This document shows positions 1 to 8,102 of a stretch of 64,000 nucleotides of DNA, in pieces; positions within the stretch are counted from its first letter, which is position 1, and each line of letters opens with the position of its first letter. Made by a program: the position numbers and the translations under genes. The DNA is taken from positions 51,887 through 115,886 of the forward strand of contig JAEUUL010000022.1 of the NCBI GenBank assembly GCA_016787485.1. Reading direction: 5' to 3'. This DNA is from Bacteroidota bacterium. GTDB taxonomy: Bacteria > Bacteroidota > Bacteroidia > NS11-12g > UBA955. The notes beneath the pieces were generated by a model, which worked only from the letters and a program-made list of their open reading frames with translations, had not been told where the DNA came from and did no database searches.

Positions 1-35
1 AAAAATTCAAAGAATTGTTCACCCATAATATTTTT

Positions 36-2852
36 TTATTTGCTCTGCCTTAACATACTTTTTGTAGCTTTAGCCAACAAACCACTCGTATACTTCTCAT
101 ACAACCCAAACAAATACTCTATCCGTTCGCGTTCATCTGCAAAGGGTTCTTTGCGGTAGCATTTGTCCACGGCTTTGTCCAGGGTTTGGTGGGCTTTGAG
201 CAGGTCTGGCGGCATGGTGAGGGGATTGTACAGGGTGGCCAGGCTGCTGCCGGGGTATTTGGCGCGGGTGTCCAGCACACCCTGTGCAGCTTCCTCAACC
301 GCCTTTTTCTGGGCATCGGTGGGGTTTTCCGGCCAGGGAAAATTATAATAAACCGAAGGCGAATAACTAAAATCACTTTTCATTTTTCCGCCTACTGTAT
401 ATGCCCATCTAACGTGCATTTTAGATTGTAGTACACCGAAAATAAACACATTTGCTCCGGGTATAATTTGCAGTTTATTGCTACAAATGACATCTTTTGA
501 TAAATATCCAATGGGAATATAATCTCTATTTTCTGAACTAACCTCCGGTACAGCGAGATATTCGCTAATGGGCTGTCTATCTTGAGTAAACAATGAAGGT
601 AATTTAGAATATCTTCTAACACTTGCAGTAGGACTGCTATTTCGAAATTCAGTCACTTTTTTAAGCCTTTCCTTTAGAACCCCATTTTTCAATAATAATT
701 CAGATGGAGCTTCCTTTAGCCAAAAACAATATCGATATTTATTATTAATAAATTCGTATGCACCGATATATTTTTTAATAAATGGGATAAGTTCAGGTTC
801 TGTTTGTGAAATAAAGTCGTAATCATCTTTTTCAAGAATTAAATGCCCACCATCAGTAGGCTGGCTCCCTTTAAACATCTCCGGCAATCCATGCAAAGGT
901 TTCGATCTGCTAGAAAGTAAAATATCATTTGAAGCAACTAAATAACTATTTATATTACTAGTAGGTATTTCAATTGGATTATTATTAATTGAATCATATA
1001 TAAATAGCCTAGAACTTTCTGTACGAAGAGCAGTAAAACCAATTATGACAACATGCACAGCCGCATTTCCGCGCGCTTCATTCGACCATTTAAAAGTTTG
1101 ATGAGCAAAATAAATATGACATTTATATTTATTAAAAACATCTGAATACATAATTGGCACTTGCTCCCCTTGAACAATGCTATTTGTGCTAACAAATCCA
1201 ACTTTAGTTAAACCATATAAATTTATATATTGGGCAGCTTTTCTATACCACGCAGCAACAAAATCTAATCTCCCAGCACGTTTTGAATCATTAAAAACAA
1301 AGTGCATATCATTTTGTTGTTCTTCATTTCTCCATTGATGTCCCAAAAACGGCGGATTCCCCATTATATAATCAAACACCTGTTCTCTCTTTTGCCAGGG
1401 AATGGGGTCTATCAGGCTTTGCCAGTCTGTGCGCAGGGCATTGGCATGTACAATGCGTGGCCTGCTGCGCAAGGGAAGGCGGGCAAAATACTGGCCAAAC
1501 ATGTCACTCACCCGCAGATTCATCTGGTGGTCCATGAGCCAAAGGGCAACCTGCGCTATCTGACTGGGGAATTCCTCTATCTCTATGCCATAGAATTGTG
1601 CCACATCGCAACGGATAAAATTGCTTACAGGCACATTCGCATAGCCAGCACTGTTTCCATCCTTTATGCTAAACTGGTCATTCAGTTGCTGTTTTATCAC
1701 TTCCAGTTCCAGCAACCGCAACTCCCGGTAGCTCACAATGAGAAAATTACCGCAACCGCAGGCCGGGTCAAGAAATCGCAGTTCACTGATTTTGTCATGA
1801 AATTTGTTCATGGCACTGCTGCGTTGCCCCTTGTTCTTGTAAGCTTTTATTGCTTCAAACTCAGCCCACAACTCATCCAGAAACAGGGGTTTAATGAGTT
1901 TGAGGATATTCTTTTCACTGGTGTAATGGGCACCCAGGTTGCGGCGCTTTTCTTTGTCCATCACACTCTGAAACAGGCTGCCGAAAATGGCGGGTGAAAT
2001 GCGGCTCCAGTCAAGGCTGCAACATTCCAGCAACTGTTCGCGCATTTTGCGGTCAAATGCGGCCGGTGGCAGGGTTTCTTCAAACAGCTTGCCATTTACA
2101 TAGGCAAAGGCATTGAGTTGTTCATCCAGATTTGTCAGACGCTTTGCCGGGTCTGTGTTCAGCACATAAAACAATTCGGCCAGTTTGGACCCCAGATCGC
2201 TTCCGTCTGTCGCGGTGCGGTCTTCTATGTACGACTGAAACTGGTATTTCTCAAAAATGTTGCTGTCTTCAGCAAACAGGCAGAACAGCAGACGCACAAG
2301 GTACACTTCCAGGGCATGTCCCTCGTATCCGGTAGCCAGCATGGCATCGTGCAGCTTGCCCATCAACTCAGCCGCTTCTATGTTGGCGGGGTCCTGCTCT
2401 TTGTATTGTGTCTGTTCGTACCCGGCAATGAACTTAAACAGATCTACCTTTTCGGGCAGTTCTGCCAACATAATTTCGTGGCTGCTGTCATGGTCCAGAT
2501 CGTACAGGCGCATGCGGGCAAAATCGCTGACGATGATGTAGCGTGGATATTCGGCAGCTTTGAGGCCGGTGAAGTAGTCGGCAGCCTGATCGTAGGCGCG
2601 GTCCAGGTTTTTGCCTTTGCTTTTATGTTCCACCACCAGTTTGCCGGGCCAGAACAGGTCTATATAACCCTGTTTGTCGTTCAGTTTCTTTACAAACTTC
2701 TCAAACATGGCCACCTGCCGGCGTTCCTGCCCGAACACGCGGAAAAAGCCATCCCAGAAGCTTTTGGCTTCGGCGTCTTCATCATAGGCATCGGCCCATT
2801 CACTGGCAAAGACAGCGGCGCGGGTGCGGATTTCGTTGAGGGAGAGGGGCAT
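36..2852 (-). CDS. Type IIG/IIL single-polypeptide restriction-modification enzyme, MmeI family (N-terminal PD-(D/E)xK nuclease + N6-adenine DNA methyltransferase + target recognition domain)
   Basis: The 938 aa length is close to MmeI (919 aa). The N-terminus (MPLSLNEIRTRA...FWDGFFRVFG...IDLFWPGKLVVEHKSKGKNLDRAYDQAADYF) follows the MmeI N-terminal nuclease pattern (D...EXK). SAM-binding motif I is LDPACGCGNFL and catalytic motif IV is MGNPPFLG (NPPF/Y of amino-methyltransferases). Confidence 0.9.
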   Translation of the reverse strand: MPLSLNEIRTRAAVFASEWADAYDEDAEAKSFWDGFFRVFGQERRQVAMFEKFVKKLNDKQGYIDLFWPGKLVVEHKSKGKNLDRAYDQAADYFTGLKAAEYPRYIIVSDFARMRLYDLDHDSSHEIMLAELPEKVDLFKFIAGYEQTQYKEQDPANIEAAELMGKLHDAMLATGYEGHALEVYLVRLLFCLFAEDSNIFEKYQFQSYIEDRTATDGSDLGSKLAELFYVLNTDPAKRLTNLDEQLNAFAYVNGKLFEETLPPAAFDRKMREQLLECCSLDWSRISPAIFGSLFQSVMDKEKRRNLGAHYTSEKNILKLIKPLFLDELWAEFEAIKAYKNKGQRSSAMNKFHDKISELRFLDPACGCGNFLIVSYRELRLLELEVIKQQLNDQFSIKDGNSAGYANVPVSNFIRCDVAQFYGIEIEEFPSQIAQVALWLMDHQMNLRVSDMFGQYFARLPLRSRPRIVHANALRTDWQSLIDPIPWQKREQVFDYIMGNPPFLGHQWRNEEQQNDMHFVFNDSKRAGRLDFVAAWYRKAAQYINLYGLTKVGFVSTNSIVQGEQVPIMYSDVFNKYKCHIYFAHQTFKWSNEARGNAAVHVVIIGFTALRTESSRLFIYDSINNNPIEIPTSNINSYLVASNDILLSSRSKPLHGLPEMFKGSQPTDGGHLILEKDDYDFISQTEPELIPFIKKYIGAYEFINNKYRYCFWLKEAPSELLLKNGVLKERLKKVTEFRNSSPTASVRRYSKLPSLFTQDRQPISEYLAVPEVSSENRDYIPIGYLSKDVICSNKLQIIPGANVFIFGVLQSKMHVRWAYTVGGKMKSDFSYSPSVYYNFPWPENPTDAQKKAVEEAAQGVLDTRAKYPGSSLATLYNPLTMPPDLLKAHQTLDKAVDKCYRKEPFADERERIEYLFGLYEKYTSGLLAKATKSMLRQSK

Positions 2853-2880
2853 TGGGGTTGCAATTTACACAAGCTCGTTG

Positions 2881-2923
2881 TTGATTTTTGTCCCGTCTGC
2901 TATACACTCATAGATTAAATTTG
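2881..2923 (+). promoter_or_regulatory. Putative Bacteroidota-type promoter for the 2939 cassette (TTG ... TAAATTTG, a TAnnTTTG-like -7 element at 2916..2923)
   Basis: TAnnTTTG match taaatttg about 15-20 nt upstream of ATG 2939, with TTG elements at 2881-2890. It lies in the divergent intergenic region between the MmeI-like gene and the cassette. Confidence 0.35.
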
Positions 2924-2938
2924 CTTTTATGAGGCGTA

Positions 2939-3445
2939 ATGTTGCAAATTTGCATAAAGATGAATCCTGAAATAGGCACAACAATTACAAATCAGGAATC
3001 TGGATTTGACCAGATCATAGATCAAGTTGTGGCATATGTGAAAGGCGAGGAACTGGAAATTTCCTCTGGTGTAGCCCCAAGGCATAAGCAAGAGATTTGG
3101 GAACAGTTGTTTAAAGGCAACTTGTTGCCCATGCTAAAATTGCAGCAAAATCAGAACAATGAAGTTTTGGGAGCACAGTTGGCCATTGGCTTTCTAAGGA
3201 GGCTCGTACTAGAATACAAGACAACTCCCCAAAAACTAGCCCTTAGTCAGAAAAACAATAAGGTATATGTATGGGCAGAAATTCAGGATGATGATGAAGC
3301 TTCAATGGATGCTATTCTGGCAGCTACAATAGACACCAACTTTGAGCATCGGGACAGTGGACTTACATTGTCTCCAATGATTGTTGAGCAACGAGAAATG
3401 ATTCCTGTACCTCCGCATTACAAGCTTCTGACCAATTATGCCTGA
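2939..3445 (+). CDS. Hypothetical protein (168 aa; an alternative start at 2960 gives MNPEIG...), first gene of a 2-gene cassette
   Basis: Intact ORF in AT-rich DNA, divergent from the RM gene. Its stop overlaps the start of the next ORF (ATGCCTGA, 8-nt overlap), implying translational coupling. I recognised no conserved motif. Confidence 0.5.
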   Translation: MLQICIKMNPEIGTTITNQESGFDQIIDQVVAYVKGEELEISSGVAPRHKQEIWEQLFKGNLLPMLKLQQNQNNEVLGAQLAIGFLRRLVLEYKTTPQKLALSQKNNKVYVWAEIQDDDEASMDAILAATIDTNFEHRDSGLTLSPMIVEQREMIPVPPHYKLLTNYA

Positions 3446-3914
3446 TTCTTCTTCGCACTTTCGACAGGCTGAAAGAAATCTTAAGGTCGTTGAAGTGCTG
3501 AATTCCAGCCCAGAACATTATTGGGATTGGCAGGTTACAGCCCTGTTTTACTCTGCATTGCATCTGATTAATGGCCACATCATGGAAACCGACGGAGGTT
3601 TTTACAATACACATGCCTCAGTGCAATCGATTATATATTTCAACAATACTGGCAGCAAGGCCAAACTGCCACGTGAGGTAGGTGTTGCATACGAAAAGTT
3701 GCAATTGCTTTCGCGCAAAGCGAGATATTTATATGATCCTGAGGGTAGAAACCTAGGAAATCCGCAATTTGTTGGTGCAGATGGATTTGAAAAAGCAGTT
3801 TATGCATATGAGATTGTTTGTAAGTATATTACCCAGACATATAATGTAAAAGTAGACAGCATCAATATTAGCTGCTTAAAGGCTGGCTGGGAAAAAAGAT
3901 CCCTGCCACTCTGA
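3438..3914 (+). CDS. Hypothetical protein with HEPN-like N-terminal helices (158 aa), second gene of the cassette
   Basis: Residues FRQAERNLKVVEVLNSS...WDWQVTALFYSALHLINGH resemble the first two helices of HEPN domains (A..L..A..L....Y..A..YyA.H...). I found no clean Rx4-6H motif (the nearest is SRKARYLYD). It overlaps the preceding ORF by 8 nt. Confidence 0.45.
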   Translation: MPDSSSHFRQAERNLKVVEVLNSSPEHYWDWQVTALFYSALHLINGHIMETDGGFYNTHASVQSIIYFNNTGSKAKLPREVGVAYEKLQLLSRKARYLYDPEGRNLGNPQFVGADGFEKAVYAYEIVCKYITQTYNVKVDSINISCLKAGWEKRSLPL

Positions 3915-4007
3915 AAACAATAATTTATCAGCATAATAAAAATCGAAAACTCGCCCTGGTTTACTTTTTTGGAAGCGAGTCTTATATTAGATATTTGATA
4001 AATTTTA

Positions 4008-4673
4008 TCAATAAAACAAGAAGCCTAAAACAAGTATTGTTCCTAAGCAACCGTAAAGCAAAGTATTATTAATATCACGTGGTGAAGATCCAGGTACATA
4101 TTCTTTTCTCTCTGTGACTTTAGCCTCTATCAGTTCTAAATCTATATTCTTATAAATTTTTCTTGAATTAATTTCTGCAGCCAATAAAAGTTTAATTTTC
4201 TCTCCTGGCTTCGGAAAAGAATCAGCACTTTGTGACTCTGTTAAATATAAATCCAATACGTCAATATTGCTTGATCTTTTTATATTGCAGTTAGGGAAAA
4301 TAGACTCTGAAAAAGTGCTATTTGCAGGTATTACAGCATTTGGTTTACTTCTGGTTGCATCAATTAATAGGGTCTGTCCACTTGAAAACGAGGTAGCATT
4401 GCCGTAAATTACCATTGAAGAGGAATTCCAAATTAGTTCAATTGGTGATTCTGAAATGTTTCTAAATATACAGTCTAAACTTGATTTACCTACAGAAAAC
4501 TTAACGGTCAATTCGGAATCTCGGTATTCCAAATTTGTGCTAATTGAATCATTAGCTCTAATCCCCCAGGTGTATTTACAGGAAAATACAGTCTTATACT
4601 TTGGCTTTAATGCTGCGCATCCTGTCAAATAAATTGAAATAAGCAAAATGATGGGTGTAAAACAATTCTTCAT
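4008..4673 (-). CDS. Lipoprotein (lipobox LTGC) with C-terminal hydrophobic anchor, function unknown
   Basis: Signal peptide MKNCFTPIILLISIYLTGC; Ser/Asn-rich body; C-terminal LLYGCLGTILVLGFLFY; AT-rich codon usage like the neighbouring cassette. Confidence 0.55.
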   Translation of the reverse strand: MKNCFTPIILLISIYLTGCAALKPKYKTVFSCKYTWGIRANDSISTNLEYRDSELTVKFSVGKSSLDCIFRNISESPIELIWNSSSMVIYGNATSFSSGQTLLIDATRSKPNAVIPANSTFSESIFPNCNIKRSSNIDVLDLYLTESQSADSFPKPGEKIKLLLAAEINSRKIYKNIDLELIEAKVTERKEYVPGSSPRDINNTLLYGCLGTILVLGFLFY

Positions 4674-4726
4674 ATCATGAATATATTTGATTCACTAATG
4701 ACTGGTCAAATATAACGATTATCATA

Positions 4727-4760
4727 AATAATAAAAGGAGGCCATTAAGACCTCCTTTTT
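4727..4760. terminator. Bidirectional rho-independent terminator (aaaGGAGGccattaagaCCTCCttttt)
   Basis: GGAGG/CCTCC stem flanked by an A-run and a T-run, lying between the lipoprotein start and the nrdJ stop. Confidence 0.5.
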
Positions 4761-4781
4761 ATAAATTCACATGATTGTATG

Positions 4782-7700
4782 TTAACTACATCCCAGACTG
4801 TTTCCACAGTTCAGGCATTTGTAGCAGGTGCCGCTGCGCACAGTGATGTGTCCGCACACGTTGCAGGCAGGGGCATCGCTTTGTACCTCACGCAGGTGGT
4901 CCTGCATGTTCTTCACTCCGCCACCGGTTTCCAGCATCGCTTCTTTTGACTCTATCACCGGAACGGGGTTGTTAAATACAGGGATGAACTCACTCACCAC
5001 CGGCGCTTCCTGCGCATCGGGGCTGGTAAACTCGCTGGGTTTCACCTGCACCAGGTCTTCGCGGTTCAGGTATTCAAAGCCAAGCAGGCGGAAGATATAA
5101 TCAACAATAGAGGTAGAATTCTTGATATTCGGGTGACCTTCCACCATGCCGCTGGGCTCGAAGCGGGTAAAGGCGAACTTGTCTACAAACTCTTCCAGGG
5201 GCACACCATACTGCAGGCCTACGGATACAGCAATGCTGAAACAGTTGACCAGAGAACGGAAGCTGGCGCCTTCCTTGTGCATATCTATAAAGATTTCACC
5301 CAGGGTACCGTCATCGTACTCACCGGTGCGCACAAAGATGGTTTGTCCGCCCACCTTGCCTTTTTGCGTAAAGCCTTTGCGCTTGTTGGGCAGGCGTTTC
5401 TTCTCTACAATGTTCGAAAGCTGGCGTTTGAATTTGGTGTCAGGGCTTTCATTCAGGATGCGCTTGGCGGCTTCCAGCACAATCTCCGGGGTCAGCTCTT
5501 CTGCAAAGCGGATCACCTTACCTTCCGTACCGGCTACTGCATCTGATTTGGCTTCTGCTTTCTCGTCTGCTTCTGCGGTTTCAGATTTATTGCTCAGGGG
5601 CTGGCTCAGTTTGCAACCATCGCGGTACAGGGCATTGGCTTTCAGGCCCAGTTTCCAGCTCAGCTCATAGCAGGCTTTGATATCGTCTACAGTGGCTTCG
5701 TTGGGCAGGTTGATGGTTTTACTGATGGCACCTGAAATAAAGGGCTGTGCAGCAGCCATCATACGGATGTGGGCAAAGGGGTGGATGTAGCGCACGCCAA
5801 TGTTTCCGCACTTGTTGGCGCAGTCAAATACAGGGTAGTGCTCCTCTTTCAGATGGGGTGCCCCTTCAATGGTCATGGTGCCTGCTACAAATACGTTGGC
5901 CTCATTGATTTCGGCTTTGCTGAATCCCAGCGCTTCCAGCATATTGAAACGGGGGTCGTTGTACTGCTCTGCAGTGAATCCTATGCGCTGCAGGCACTCC
6001 TCGCCCAGTGTGTATTTGTTGAACACAAAACCGATTTCGAATGCCATTGGGGCTTCGGATTCCAGTTTTTCCAGGTCTGCCTCGTTAAATCCTTTGGCCC
6101 GCAATGATTCGTGGTTGATATGCGGTGCACCGGCAAATGTTTGGTGACCTTTTGCATAGTTTACGATTTCATCCACTTCCTCCGGAGTGTAGCCCAGGTT
6201 TTTCAGTGCAACCGGAACGGTGTTGTTTACAATTTTAAAATATCCTCCACCACTGAGTTTCTTGTATTTCACCAGGGCAAAATCGGGTTCAATACCGGTG
6301 GTATCACAATCCATGAGCAGACCAATGGTTCCGGTTGGTGCAATCACGGTTGACTGTGCATTGCGATAGCCGTAGCGTTCACCCCACTGCAGGGCGCGAT
6401 CCCAGGCATTGCAGGCACTCTTCAGCAGATAATCAGGGCAGTATTTCTCATCAATGCAAACAGGTTTGATTCCCAACCCTTCAAACGCCAGCGGAGTGTT
6501 GTATGCCGCATAGCGGTGGTTGCGGATAACCCGCATCATGTGTTTCTTGTTCTTTTCATACATGCGGAACGGGCCTTTTACAGCTGCCATTTCTGCACTT
6601 GTAGCATAAGCAACACCTGTAAGAATGGCGGTAACCGAGCCACAAATGGCGCTGGCCTCTTTGCTGTCGTAGGGTATACCAGCACTCATCAGCACAGAAC
6701 CCAGATTGGCGTAACCCAGACCCAGTGTACGATAGTCGTAGCTGAGCTGTGCCACTTCCTTGCTGGGGAACTGGGCCATAAGCACAGAGATTTCAAGAAC
6801 AGTGGTCCACAGACGGCTGGCGTATTCCAGAGAGTTCACATCAAAGGTGCGTTCATCTTCACTGAAGAATTTGCGCAGATTGAGTGATGCCAGATTGCAG
6901 GCAGTATTGTCCAGGAACATATACTCACTGCAGGGGTTGCTGGCATTGATGCGGCCACCTTCAGGGCAGGTATGCCATTCGTTGATGGTATCATCATACT
7001 GCATTCCGGGGTCGGCACAGGCCCATGCCGCTTCACCAATGGCATCCCATACTTCCTGTGCAGGCATGGTATGCATTACTTTTCCGGTACTGCGGGCAGT
7101 AAATTCCCAATCCTGGTTGTTCTTCAGTTTGTCGAAAAACCGGTTGGATACACGGATAGAGTTGTTGCTGTTCTGTCCGGATACCGTGTTATAGGCTTCA
7201 CCTTCGTAATCGTTGCTGTATCCGGCTTTAATAAGGGCAGCCACCTTAGCTTCTTCCCCTTGTTTCCATTTGATAAACTCCAAGGCCTCGGGGTGATCCA
7301 GATCCAGACACACCATTTTGGCTGCACGGCGTGTGGTTCCGCCGCTTTTGATAGCTCCGGCAGCACGGTCACCTATTTTAAGGAAACTCATCAGGCCGCT
7401 GCTTGTTCCCCCACCACTCAGTTTTTCTCCTGCACCACGTATACGTGAGAAGTTTGTACCCACACCAGAGCCGTACTTGAAAATACGGGCTTCACGCACC
7501 CACAAATCCATGATACCGCCTTCGTTGACCAGATCATCGTCTACAGACAGGATAAAGCAGGCATGGGGTTGCGGACGTTCGTAGGCAGATGTGCTTTTGG
7601 TGAGTTTTTCAGTCTCAGGATCCACGTAGTAGTGACCCTGAGGTTTGCCTGCAATGGCATAGCTGCTGTGCAGACCTGTGTTGAACCACTGCGGGCTGTT

Positions 7701-8102
7701 GGGCGCCGCTTCCTGGTTCAGCATGGAATAGACCAACTCATCATAGAACACCTGTGCATCCGTGCTGCTGGCGAAGTACCCATACTTTTCCCCCCATTGA
7801 CGCCAGCAGTTGGCCAAACGGTGTACCACCTGTTTTGCAGATGTTTCACTCCCCAGTGAACCATCTGCCTGCGGTACGCCGGCTTTACGGAAATATTTCT
7901 GCGCCATGATATCTGTAGCCACCTGGCTCCAGCCTTGTGGTACTTCCACATTGCGCATTTCAAACACTACGCTGCCATCCGGTTTTTTAATGACCGAACT
8001 GCGCATGTCGTAAACAAATTGATCAAAGGGACTAACGCCTTCTTTGGTGTTCTGCCTTTTAAATTCAAGGCCGTTGGGGTTGAGGGTAAATTCTTGACTC
8101 AT
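4782..8102 (-). CDS. nrdJ: Adenosylcobalamin-dependent ribonucleotide reductase, class II (long form with C-terminal Zn ribbon)
   Basis: 1106 aa; RNR active-site signature [23 protein letters not shown]; C-terminal CNVCGH...CYKCLNCG zinc ribbon typical of NrdJ. Confidence 0.9.

What the first reader, a model, noticed from the sequence alone, without database searches (positions are those of the whole stretch)
361..1320. Compositional mosaic inside the MmeI-like gene: AT-rich central block matching the expected TRD position
The 5' two-thirds of the gene (nuclease + methyltransferase, about 1380..2852) has genome-typical GC content. About 360..1320, encoding roughly aa 510-820, is strikingly AT-rich, and the 3' end becomes GC-rich again. 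In MmeI-family enzymes the target recognition domain lies after the methyltransferase domain, and its swapping is known to retarget specificity. This pattern suggests a recombinational TRD replacement from a low-GC donor, and hence a new recognition sequence.
Basis: partly seen in the sequence, partly recalled or inferred. Interest (0 to 1): 0.55.

Follow-up and report, generated by a model that had tools for sequence, protein, structure and literature searches.

The report
Swapped DNA-recognition module in MmeI-like enzyme
A restriction-modification enzyme gene of the MmeI family carries a sharply bounded AT-rich middle section, its whole DNA-reading module, that was exchanged by recombination; this way of changing target sequence is already known for these enzymes, so the case is clear but ordinary.

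Summary
The gene at window 36..2852 (-) encodes a complete 938-aa MmeI-family (Type IIL/IIG) enzyme. Codons 504-838 (window 339..1343) have GC3 0.20. The rest of the gene has 0.61 and host genes 0.51 +/- 0.05. The edges are step-like, directly after GNPPFL (methyltransferase motif IV) and directly before PWPE.

Thirteen relatives are 85-92% identical outside this block but only 42-59% inside. Two of them lie at the same chromosomal site, next to the class II ribonucleotide reductase. In sister pairs the block is saturated at synonymous sites while the frame is nearly identical (dS 2.05 against 0.12). That shows recombination, not fast local evolution.

The block is larger than the TRD. It also holds the C-terminal 136 aa of the methyltransferase domain, and it contains all 16 base-contact positions known from the MmeI-DNA structure. 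The contact residues predict roughly (G/A)GCCAG. That differs from the alleles at the same locus, but the signature is shared with a widespread Chitinophagaceae-type group.

No donor was found; the best block match anywhere is 60%. A milder AT shift of this module occurs in 95% of 78 diverse homologues. TRD exchange in this family was proposed in 2009, so this is a new member of a known kind.

The parts
36..2852 (-). Complete MmeI-family (Type IIL/IIG) restriction-modification gene, 938 aa plus stop
   Evidence: All five MmeI Pfam domains are present with E-values from 1e-24 to 1e-89. It matches PDB 5HR4 (MmeI) at E=1e-297 over residues 1-925 and PADLOC REase_MTase_IIG at 1167 bits. An identical protein, P0001, is on record as 'MAG: Bacteroidetes bacterium'.
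2403..2852 (-). N-terminal PD-(D/E)XK nuclease domain (aa 1-150), part of the conserved frame
   Evidence: D65, E75 and K77 align with MmeI D70, E80 and K82 and are invariant in 25 homologues. GC3 is about 0.63.
1968..2402 (-). Helical spacer (aa 151-295), part of the conserved frame
   Evidence: Pfam MmeI_hel covers 179-257. The MmeI domain limits come from PMC4833311 and were transferred through the alignment.
1344..1967 (-). N-terminal part of the gamma-class N6-adenine methyltransferase domain, up to motif IV (aa 296-503), part of the conserved frame
   Evidence: Motif I (FLDPACGCGNF, 360-370) and motif IV (NPPF, 499-502) are intact. GC3 is 0.57 over aa 341-503. A second, older mosaic lies at aa 341-503: 89% identity to P0002 and P0004 but about 70% to the other clade members.
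1344..1361 (-). Left junction anchor GGG AAT CCG CCG TTT TTG (G498-L503)
   Evidence: The core AAT CCG CCG TTT is identical in nine of the ten clade-level genes aligned (one has CCT for the first proline codon), while the flanking glycine and leucine codons vary. Sequence identity and GC3 switch right after it.
936..1343 (-). AT-rich block, first part: C-terminal part of the methyltransferase domain (aa 504-639), including the minor-groove contact loop Q506-W507-R508
   Evidence: GC3 is about 0.2. Identity to clade mates is 48-72% against about 90% in the frame. MmeI K487, S488 and K489 contact base pairs 2 and 4 (PMC4833311). They map here through the alignment.
339..935 (-). AT-rich block, second part: target recognition domain (aa 640-838)
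   Evidence: Pfam MmeI_TRD covers 642-842. Identity to clade mates is 28-54%. It holds the contact positions K661, Q664, T742, T756, Q757, E770, V771, N792, K793, M824, K825, D827 and S829.
327..338 (-). Right junction anchor CCC TGG CCG GAA (P839-E842)
   Evidence: This string is nearly invariant in the ten aligned genes. GC3 switches between F838 (TTT) and P839 (CCC).
39..338 (-). C-terminal helical bundle (aa 839-938), part of the conserved frame
   Evidence: Pfam MmeI_C covers 846-925. Identity to clade mates is 87-94%, apart from P0013 and P0014 at 73% and 78%. GC3 is 0.67.
4782..8102 (-). Class II ribonucleotide reductase, the marker showing that the locus is orthologous in relatives
   Evidence: Pfam Ribonuc_red_2_N, Ribonuc_red_lgC and TSCPD. 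The same gene sits directly upstream of the MmeI-like gene in L088 and L090. It is 81-82% identical at the protein level, with dS 1.7-1.9.
2853..4781 (.). Variable low-GC spacer between the reductase and the MmeI-like gene, with three ORFs that match no family (2939..3445 +, 3438..3914 +, 4008..4673 -)
   Evidence: GC is 0.29-0.45. There are no hits in Pfam, NCBIfam, PADLOC or PHROGs. At the same position L088 has an Abi_2 gene and L090 has nothing.

Best explanation
The gene encodes an intact single-chain MmeI-type enzyme: nuclease, spacer, N6-adenine methyltransferase, TRD and C-terminal bundle. Its complete DNA-reading module (aa 504-838) was replaced by homologous recombination with a diverged MmeI-family gene from a low-GC source. 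The module comprises the methyltransferase segment after motif IV, with its minor-groove contact loop, plus the TRD. The crossovers fell in the two conserved stretches that flank the module, GNPPF(L) and (F)PWPE. The rest of the gene stayed in place next to the ribonucleotide reductase and diverged together with the chromosome.

The exchange gave this lineage a different target from the alleles at the same locus in relatives. The predicted target is about 5'-(G/A)GCCAG-3', methylated on the adenine, with cleavage about 20/18 nt downstream.

Shown: the composition step, the collapse of identity, the shared locus, the recombination signal in sister pairs, and the intact catalytic motifs.
Inferred: the direction of the exchange (block incoming, frame resident), its fairly recent date, the crossover sites, enzyme activity, and the predicted motif.
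For: (1) The GC3 step is sharp, 0.20 against 0.61, at codons 504 and 838, with LLR 78.7 against at most 10.2 in shuffles. The block lies about 6 SD below host genes and the frame is close to host.
(2) Thirteen relatives are 85-92% identical in the frame and 42-59% in the block.
(3) L088 and L090 carry the gene beside the same class II reductase. Frame dS to the window gene is 1.4-1.5, similar to the reductase's 1.7-1.9. Block dN is 0.60-0.63, against 0.056 in the frame and 0.15 in the reductase.
(4) Recombination is shown directly in the clade. For L088 against L089, frame dS is 0.12 and dN 0, while block dS is 2.05. For L088 against L090 and L001 against L002, frame dS is 0.5-0.6 and the block is saturated.
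(5) Block types do not follow frame relationships. P0009's frame is 95-96% identical to P0008 and P0010, but its block is 45-48% identical to theirs and 74% to P0014. P0004's block is 83% identical to P0013 but 50% to P0002, whose frame is 96% identical to P0004's.
(6) All 16 base-contact positions of the MmeI-DNA structure (PMC4833311) fall inside the block.
(7) The core of the nucleotide anchors at both edges is conserved.
(8) Equally strong mosaics occur in isolate genomes, for example Pontibacter sp. H259 with frame 0.72 and block 0.29. The pattern is therefore not an artefact of metagenome assembly.
Against: No donor was found. The closest block among 5.8 billion proteins is 60% identical. 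JGI metagenome and IMG/VR scans found nothing.

The window gene's frame is already near synonymous saturation against its nearest sampled relatives (dS 0.8-2.6). The dS contrast therefore cannot be shown for this gene itself.

Against the more distant P0015 group, identity is about uniform along the gene, 57-61% in the block and 65-67% in the frame. On protein evidence alone, the window could hold an old block while its clade mates were the ones replaced.

The AT shift of this module is family-wide, seen in 95% of 78 genes. Some region-specific bias could therefore add to the signal.
Confidence: 0.75

Rival explanations
1. The mosaic was inherited, not made here. The exchange took place in another genome, and the already mosaic gene reached this locus as a whole. 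It could have arrived by allelic replacement through flanking homology or on a mobile element.
For: Close relatives P0002 and P0003 lie next to integrase, RteC and HTH_17 genes, so the clade does travel on integrative elements. Every clade member examined is mosaic. The DNA between the gene and the reductase is a variable low-GC insert.
Against: The frame's synonymous divergence from the alleles at the same locus (1.4-1.5) is close to that of the neighbouring reductase (1.7-1.9). The frame's GC3 is also near host level. Both fit long residence of the frame at this site.
Confidence: 0.12
2. There was no exchange. The recognition module evolves very fast where it sits, under diversifying selection. 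Its synonymous sites drift towards AT because selection or biased gene conversion that keeps GC3 high acts less well there.
For: The AT shift of the module is family-wide and graded. The median difference between frame and block is 0.16, and 95% of 78 genes show it. It grows with host GC (rho 0.44). The block tracks host GC3 with slope 0.75, as partial equilibration would predict.
Against: The step in the window gene is sharp to within a few codons and as large as 0.41. Invariant prolines inside the block also use AT-ending codons. Within the block, GC3 does not follow residue conservation (rho 0.08). Sister pairs with frame dS of 0.12 have block dS of 2.05. Block types are shared across different frames.
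Confidence: 0.08
3. The mosaic is an assembly chimera. The source is a metagenome-assembled genome, and the assembler joined reads from two populations at the conserved motifs.
For: The matching protein record is a MAG. Both junctions lie in conserved nucleotide strings.
Against: The shared strings are only about 12-17 nt, shorter than usual assembly k-mers. Two chimeric joins returning to the same frame would be required. Nine independent assemblies show the same architecture, as do isolate genomes such as Pontibacter sp. H259 and Flavobacterium fragile. The reading frame and all motifs are intact.
Confidence: 0.03

Closest known systems
MmeI of Methylophilus methylotrophus (Type IIL; PDB 5HR4; TCCRAC 20/18)
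   Same: It has the same five-domain single-chain architecture and aligns end to end at E=1e-297. The nuclease D-X9-E-X-K motif, methyltransferase motif I and NPPF are all intact.
   Different: Eleven of the 13 TRD contact positions differ (only E751 and N773 are kept), as do all three methyltransferase-loop contacts. Examples are Y642/K645 to K/Q, A774/R810 to K/S and E806/R808 to K/D. A different target is therefore predicted. The host is a Bacteroidota MAG, not a betaproteobacterium.
Microcystis aeruginosa PCC7806 pair IPF4888 / IPF5080 (Morgan & Luyten 2009, PMC2731914)
   Same: These are two MmeI homologues that are 98.5% identical everywhere except the TRD region, where identity is 55%. 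The authors read this as TRD exchange by recombination. The pattern is the same as in this clade.
   Different: That case is a pair of paralogues within one genome. Here the comparison is between alleles at an orthologous locus in different lineages. No compositional signature was found in the sections of that paper read here, and the breakpoints (NPPF and FPWPE) were not looked up in its Supplementary Figure S8.
Movement and allelic replacement of TRDs in Helicobacter pylori Type I, IIG and III systems (Furuta et al., PMC3077401, PMC3467074, PMC3983042)
   Same: Recognition domains are exchanged through recombination, and methylation specificity changes as a result (abstracts only; that the recombination runs through flanking conserved sequence is from my own knowledge).
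   Different: These are different enzyme families. The exchange is within a species and among co-resident genes. Here the imported module differs strongly in composition from the host, which points to a distant source.
TRD shuffling in Type I hsdS specificity subunits
   Same: Variable recognition modules sit between conserved frame segments and are reassorted by recombination (my own knowledge).
   Different: HsdS is a separate subunit with two TRDs. Here the module lies inside the catalytic polypeptide and takes part of the methyltransferase domain with it.

Membership tests
MmeI family (Type IIL / IIG single-chain restriction-modification enzymes) | Five-domain architecture: MmeI_N, helical spacer, MTase, TRD, C-terminal bundle | tested here: met
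   All five Pfam models score far above their cut-offs. The alignment to 5HR4 runs end to end.
MmeI family (Type IIL / IIG single-chain restriction-modification enzymes) | PD-(D/E)XK nuclease motif D-X9-E-X-K | tested here: met
   D65, E75 and K77 align with MmeI D70, E80 and K82 and are invariant in 25 homologues. That these are the catalytic residues comes from my own knowledge of MmeI.
MmeI family (Type IIL / IIG single-chain restriction-modification enzymes) | Gamma-class N6-adenine methyltransferase motifs I and IV (NPPF) | tested here: met
   FLDPACGCGNF at 360-370 and NPPF at 499-502.
MmeI family (Type IIL / IIG single-chain restriction-modification enzymes) | Stand-alone system with no companion methyltransferase or specificity subunit | tested here: inconclusive
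   The upstream neighbours match no methyltransferase or S-subunit family. The downstream side is cut off by the window edge at base 36, and the contig could not be retrieved.
MmeI family (Type IIL / IIG single-chain restriction-modification enzymes) | AdoMet-dependent cleavage about 20/18 nt from an asymmetric site; methylation of one strand only | not testable with these tools
   This needs biochemistry or methylome sequencing.
Recombinational exchange of the recognition module (TRD swap) | High identity in flanking segments and a collapse inside the module | tested here: met
   85-92% against 42-59% in 13 relatives.
Recombinational exchange of the recognition module (TRD swap) | Excess synonymous divergence in the module relative to the flanks | tested here: inconclusive
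   Met for sister pairs in the clade: L088 against L089 gives 2.05 against 0.12, and L088 against L090 and L001 against L002 give saturation against 0.5-0.6. Not resolvable for the window gene itself, because its frame dS to the nearest relatives is already 0.8-2.6.
Recombinational exchange of the recognition module (TRD swap) | Same chromosomal locus carrying different modules | tested here: met
   In the window, L088 and L090 the gene lies next to the class II reductase. Blocks are 42-48% identical to one another.
Recombinational exchange of the recognition module (TRD swap) | An identified donor carrying a near-identical module | tested here: not met
   The best block identity is 60%. Cluster representatives reach at most 51%. 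Metagenome and viral scans found none.

The most novel reading that the evidence does not exclude
The AT-rich module may be one visible case of a family-wide rule. Across phyla, the recognition module of MmeI-type enzymes is shifted towards AT relative to both its own frame and its host: 95% of 78 genes, with the block 0.10 below host GC3 while the frame tracks the host with slope 1.0. This would mean that recognition modules, bounded by NPPF and FPW, turn over as a semi-independent pool of cassettes moving between genomes much faster than the enzyme frames. It would be a natural cassette system for retargeting restriction enzymes, detectable from composition alone.
Probability: 0.3. Interest if true: 0.5.

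Novelty: new member of a known kind. Interest (0 to 1): 0.3.

Why it matters
This is a clean natural example of how a single-chain restriction-modification enzyme changes its target. The enzyme swaps its whole DNA-contact module and keeps its catalytic frame.

The natural breakpoints lie right after NPPF and right before PWPE. They show which piece can be moved without breaking the enzyme: the TRD together with the methyltransferase segment that carries the minor-groove contacts. That is practical guidance for building chimeric MmeI-type enzymes with new specificities.

The survey also suggests that a drop in third-position GC inside such genes can flag recognition modules with a separate history. 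The biology itself is not surprising to specialists.

Tried and rejected
- Donor search, block alone: it returned only fragments shorter than 600 aa, best 58%. The tool appears to filter by length.
- Donor search, exhaustive against cluster representatives: at most 51%, too coarse to be useful.
- Donor search, JGI metagenome and IMG/VR scans with block peptides: no relatives.
- Donor search, block repeated three times so that full-length proteins pass the filter: this worked, but nothing exceeds 60%.
- Contig beyond the window's left edge: the exact protein is not in the encoding-contig index, so the downstream neighbours remain unseen.
- Silent TRD cassettes or a shufflon: tblastn of the block and of the full protein against the window finds no second copy. 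Rejected.
- Downstream genes of relatives as spare TRDs: they have no similarity to the MmeI-like protein. Rejected.
- Avoidance of the predicted motif: GCCAG occurs 212 times against 221 expected, and the NGCCAG ratios are 0.79-1.15. Uninformative.
- Nucleotide anchors conserved beyond protein constraint: family-wide, CCG at the NPPF prolines is 51-55% against a 27% baseline. Other conserved prolines reach 50-53%, so this is not special.
- Amino-acid composition as the cause of low GC: rejected by the per-amino-acid GC3 comparison and the unchanged GC2.
- RflFIII as a characterised enzyme with the same position-2 contacts: its site could not be confirmed. One paper quotes GCGCAG from REBASE, which disagrees with my memory of CGCCAG. 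No equivalence is claimed.
Full report
1. THE OBSERVATION

The composition drop is real and sharp. In 200-nt windows GC is 0.295-0.385 from about 301 to 1400, 0.46-0.56 from 1301 to 2900, and 0.535-0.57 at 101-400. The window as a whole is 0.472.

The region lies inside one ORF, 36..2852 on the minus strand, 938 aa. A two-state change-point fit on third codon positions places the low-GC block at codons 504-838, window 339..1343.
- GC3 is 0.197 inside and 0.612 outside.
- GC2 is unchanged, 0.355 against 0.350.
- The log-likelihood ratio is 78.7, against at most 10.2 in 30 codon shuffles.
- The edges are supported within codons 489-509 and 836-839.

The other 37 long ORFs of the window have GC3 0.508 +/- 0.053. 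Among 219 host windows of 200 codons, only the adjacent ORF 4011..4673 approaches the block. Every degenerate amino acid shows the drop.

2. WHAT THE GENE IS

The protein has all five MmeI Pfam domains: N 11-173, spacer 179-257, MTase 340-617, TRD 642-842 and C 846-925. It aligns end to end with the crystallised MmeI, 5HR4, at E=1e-297. It scores 1167 bits on the PADLOC Type IIG model.

The catalytic motifs are intact. The nuclease residues D65, E75 and K77 align with MmeI D70, E80 and K82. Methyltransferase motif I (FLDPACGCGNF) and motif IV (NPPF, 499-502) are present. The identical protein is on record from a Bacteroidetes MAG.

3. WHERE THE BLOCK LIES

The left edge falls right after G-N-P-P-F-L and the right edge right before P-W-P-E. 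I transferred the MmeI domain limits (PMC4833311) through the alignment. On that basis the block is the last 136 residues of the methyltransferase domain (504-639) plus nearly the whole TRD (640-838). It is therefore larger than the TRD.

The structure paper lists the residues that contact bases: Y642, K645, A723, F737, Y738, E751, T752, N773, A774, L805, E806, R808 and R810 in the TRD, and K487, S488 and K489 in the methyltransferase domain. All 16 map inside the block, from Q506 to S829. None of the catalytic motifs I-IV does. The block is the complete DNA-reading module.

4. COMPARISON WITH RELATIVES

Thirteen proteins (P0002-P0014) are 85-92% identical to the window protein over the frame (aa 1-340 and 839-925). 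Over the block they are only 42-59% identical.

Among these 14 proteins there are at least eight block types, and the types do not follow the frames.
- P0009's frame is 95-96% identical to P0008 and P0010, but its block is 45-48% identical to theirs and 74% to P0014.
- P0004's block is 83% identical to P0013, but 50% to P0002, whose frame is 96% identical to P0004's.

5. SAME LOCUS IN RELATIVES

In L088 (P0008) and L090 (P0009) the gene lies directly downstream of a 1110-aa class II ribonucleotide reductase. In the window the equivalent reductase is at 4782..8102. The reductases are 81-82% identical to the window's, with dS 1.7-1.9 and dN 0.15. The MmeI frame has dS 1.4-1.5 and dN 0.056, and the block has dN 0.60-0.63.

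The frame has therefore diverged roughly in step with the chromosome. The block is unrelated at that scale.

6. RECOMBINATION RATHER THAN FAST LOCAL EVOLUTION

For the pair L088 and L089, the frame has dS 0.12 and dN 0, while the block has dS 2.05. For L088 against L090 and L001 against L002, frame dS is 0.5-0.6 and the block is saturated. Fast protein evolution in place cannot raise synonymous divergence 17-fold, but exchange with a diverged gene can.

For the window gene itself this test lacks power, because its frame is already near saturation against all sampled relatives (dS 0.8-2.6). There the evidence is the GC3 step, the shared locus and the pattern in the clade.

The block's GC3 (0.20) is far from the host's (0.51). 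I infer that the import is younger than the split from the nearest sampled relatives, since synonymous sites would otherwise have moved towards host composition. This is a rough inference, not a measurement.

7. JUNCTIONS

In ten aligned genes the core AAT CCG CCG TTT at the left edge is nearly invariant, and so is CCC TGG CCG GA(A) at the right edge. In the window gene the codon style flips at these points. These are plausible crossover sites.

Across the wider family the nucleotide conservation there is only moderately above what the protein requires. I make no stronger claim.

8. PREDICTED SPECIFICITY

I used the published residue-base correlations (PMC2731914; PMC4833311).
- K661/Q664, at MmeI Y642/K645: G at position 2.
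- E770/N792, at MmeI E751/N773: C at position 3.
- K793/S829, at MmeI A774/R810: C at position 4.
- K825/D827, at MmeI E806/R808: G at position 6.
- T742/T756/Q757, at MmeI A723/F737/Y738: position 1 is ambiguous. Thr points to G and Gln to A.

This gives about 5'-(G/A)GCCAG-3', with the adenine methylated.

The two alleles at the same locus, P0008 and P0009, have different contact sets, so the target differs between them. However, the window's full signature, including the methyltransferase loop Q-W-R, is identical to that of P0015, P0017, P0018, P0021, P0024, P0025, P0027 and P0029. The named members of that group come from Chitinophagaceae-like Bacteroidota. The target is therefore probably not new to the family. 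Nothing was measured.

9. DONOR

None was found. When proteins are ranked by block similarity alone, the best match after the protein itself is 60% identical. Cluster representatives reach at most 51%. Metagenome and viral scans found nothing. One gene of the closest block group, L091, sits in DNA of 35% GC with block GC3 0.27. This fits a low-GC source, but the lineage is unsampled.

10. A WIDER PATTERN

All nine close relatives whose DNA I fetched are mosaic in the same way, with frame-segment GC3 0.41-0.82 and block GC3 0.26-0.52.

In 78 homologues from many phyla, taken from GTDB species representatives, block GC3 is below frame GC3 in 95%. The median difference is 0.16 and the maximum 0.42 (Wilcoxon p=3e-14). 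The window's difference of 0.415 is at the extreme.

The averaged profile steps down at about aa 481-500 and recovers at about 800-860. Frames track the GC3 of flanking genes with slope 1.01 and an offset of +0.05. Blocks track with slope 0.75 and sit 0.10 below, and 85% of them lie below the host. Invariant prolines inside the block also prefer AT-ending codons. Within the block, GC3 does not follow residue conservation.

The simplest reading is that recognition modules are, on average, more recent arrivals than frames, and that acquired DNA tends to be AT-rich (general knowledge). A region-specific substitution bias is not excluded.

11. COMPARISON WITH WHAT IS KNOWN

[quoted passage not shown] They cited two Microcystis paralogues that are 98.5% identical outside the TRD region and 55% inside. 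TRD movement is also well described for Helicobacter systems.

This finding is a further, well-resolved natural case. What it adds:
- the exact module boundaries;
- the co-transfer of the methyltransferase contact loop;
- the evidence from an orthologous locus;
- the compositional signature and its spread across the family.

12. VERDICT

This is a new member of a known kind, with interest 0.3.

Noticed in passing
window 2853..4781: The stretch between the reductase and the MmeI-like gene is a variable low-GC insert. It has an overlapping ORF pair (2939..3445 and 3438..3914, + strand) and a predicted lipoprotein (4008..4673, - strand, GC3 0.26; signal peptide with Cys, C-terminal hydrophobic tail). 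None matches Pfam, NCBIfam, PADLOC or PHROGs. At the same position L088 has an Abi_2 gene and L090 has nothing, so this looks like an insertion hotspot beside the defence gene.
   Followed up: partly
window 1344..1829 (aa 341-503 of the gene): There is a second, older mosaic inside the frame. This segment is 89% identical to P0002 and P0004 but only 68-74% to the other clade members. A 10-residue-longer loop variant (QQLNDQFSIKDGNSAGYANVPVSNF) is shared only with those two. GC3 here is frame-like (0.57).
   Followed up: partly
window 1..35, and L003, L005, L088, L089, L090 downstream of the gene: In five relatives the MmeI-like gene is followed by a variable 242-364 aa protein with no Pfam hit (three of these fall into two unrelated types, the other is unique) and then a conserved 95-101 aa DUF4325 protein. 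In the window a minus-strand ATG at about base 26 may start such a downstream gene, but the window edge cuts it off. A functional link to the enzyme is unknown.
   Followed up: partly
L088 against L089 (P0008 against P0010): Two genes whose N-terminal 340 residues are identical (whole frame 98%) share one block type (81-82% identical). They differ at the position-6 contact pair, K-x-D against E-x-R, the switch shown experimentally to change G to C. Block dS is 2.05, so even this difference probably arose by exchange between related cassettes and not by point mutation.
   Followed up: partly
L001 793..4611 and L003 7782..9297: The closest frame relatives P0002 and P0003 lie next to a tyrosine integrase (Arm-DNA-bind_5, Phage_integrase) and HTH_17; RteC and AAA_25 genes are also present beside P0002 (L001). 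That is the make-up of Bacteroidota integrative mobilisable or conjugative elements. The same gene clade is therefore chromosomal at the reductase locus in some lineages and carried on elements in others.
   Followed up: no
window 39..152 (aa 901-938): GC falls again in the last 40 or so codons (0.41, then 0.30). This lysine-rich C-terminal tail differs among all relatives.
   Followed up: no
L051 (Pontibacter sp. H259) and L005: Two other genes show a GC3 mosaic as extreme as the window's (frame 0.72 and 0.68, block 0.29 and 0.28). One is from a cultured isolate, which could serve as an experimental system for the same question.
   Followed up: no
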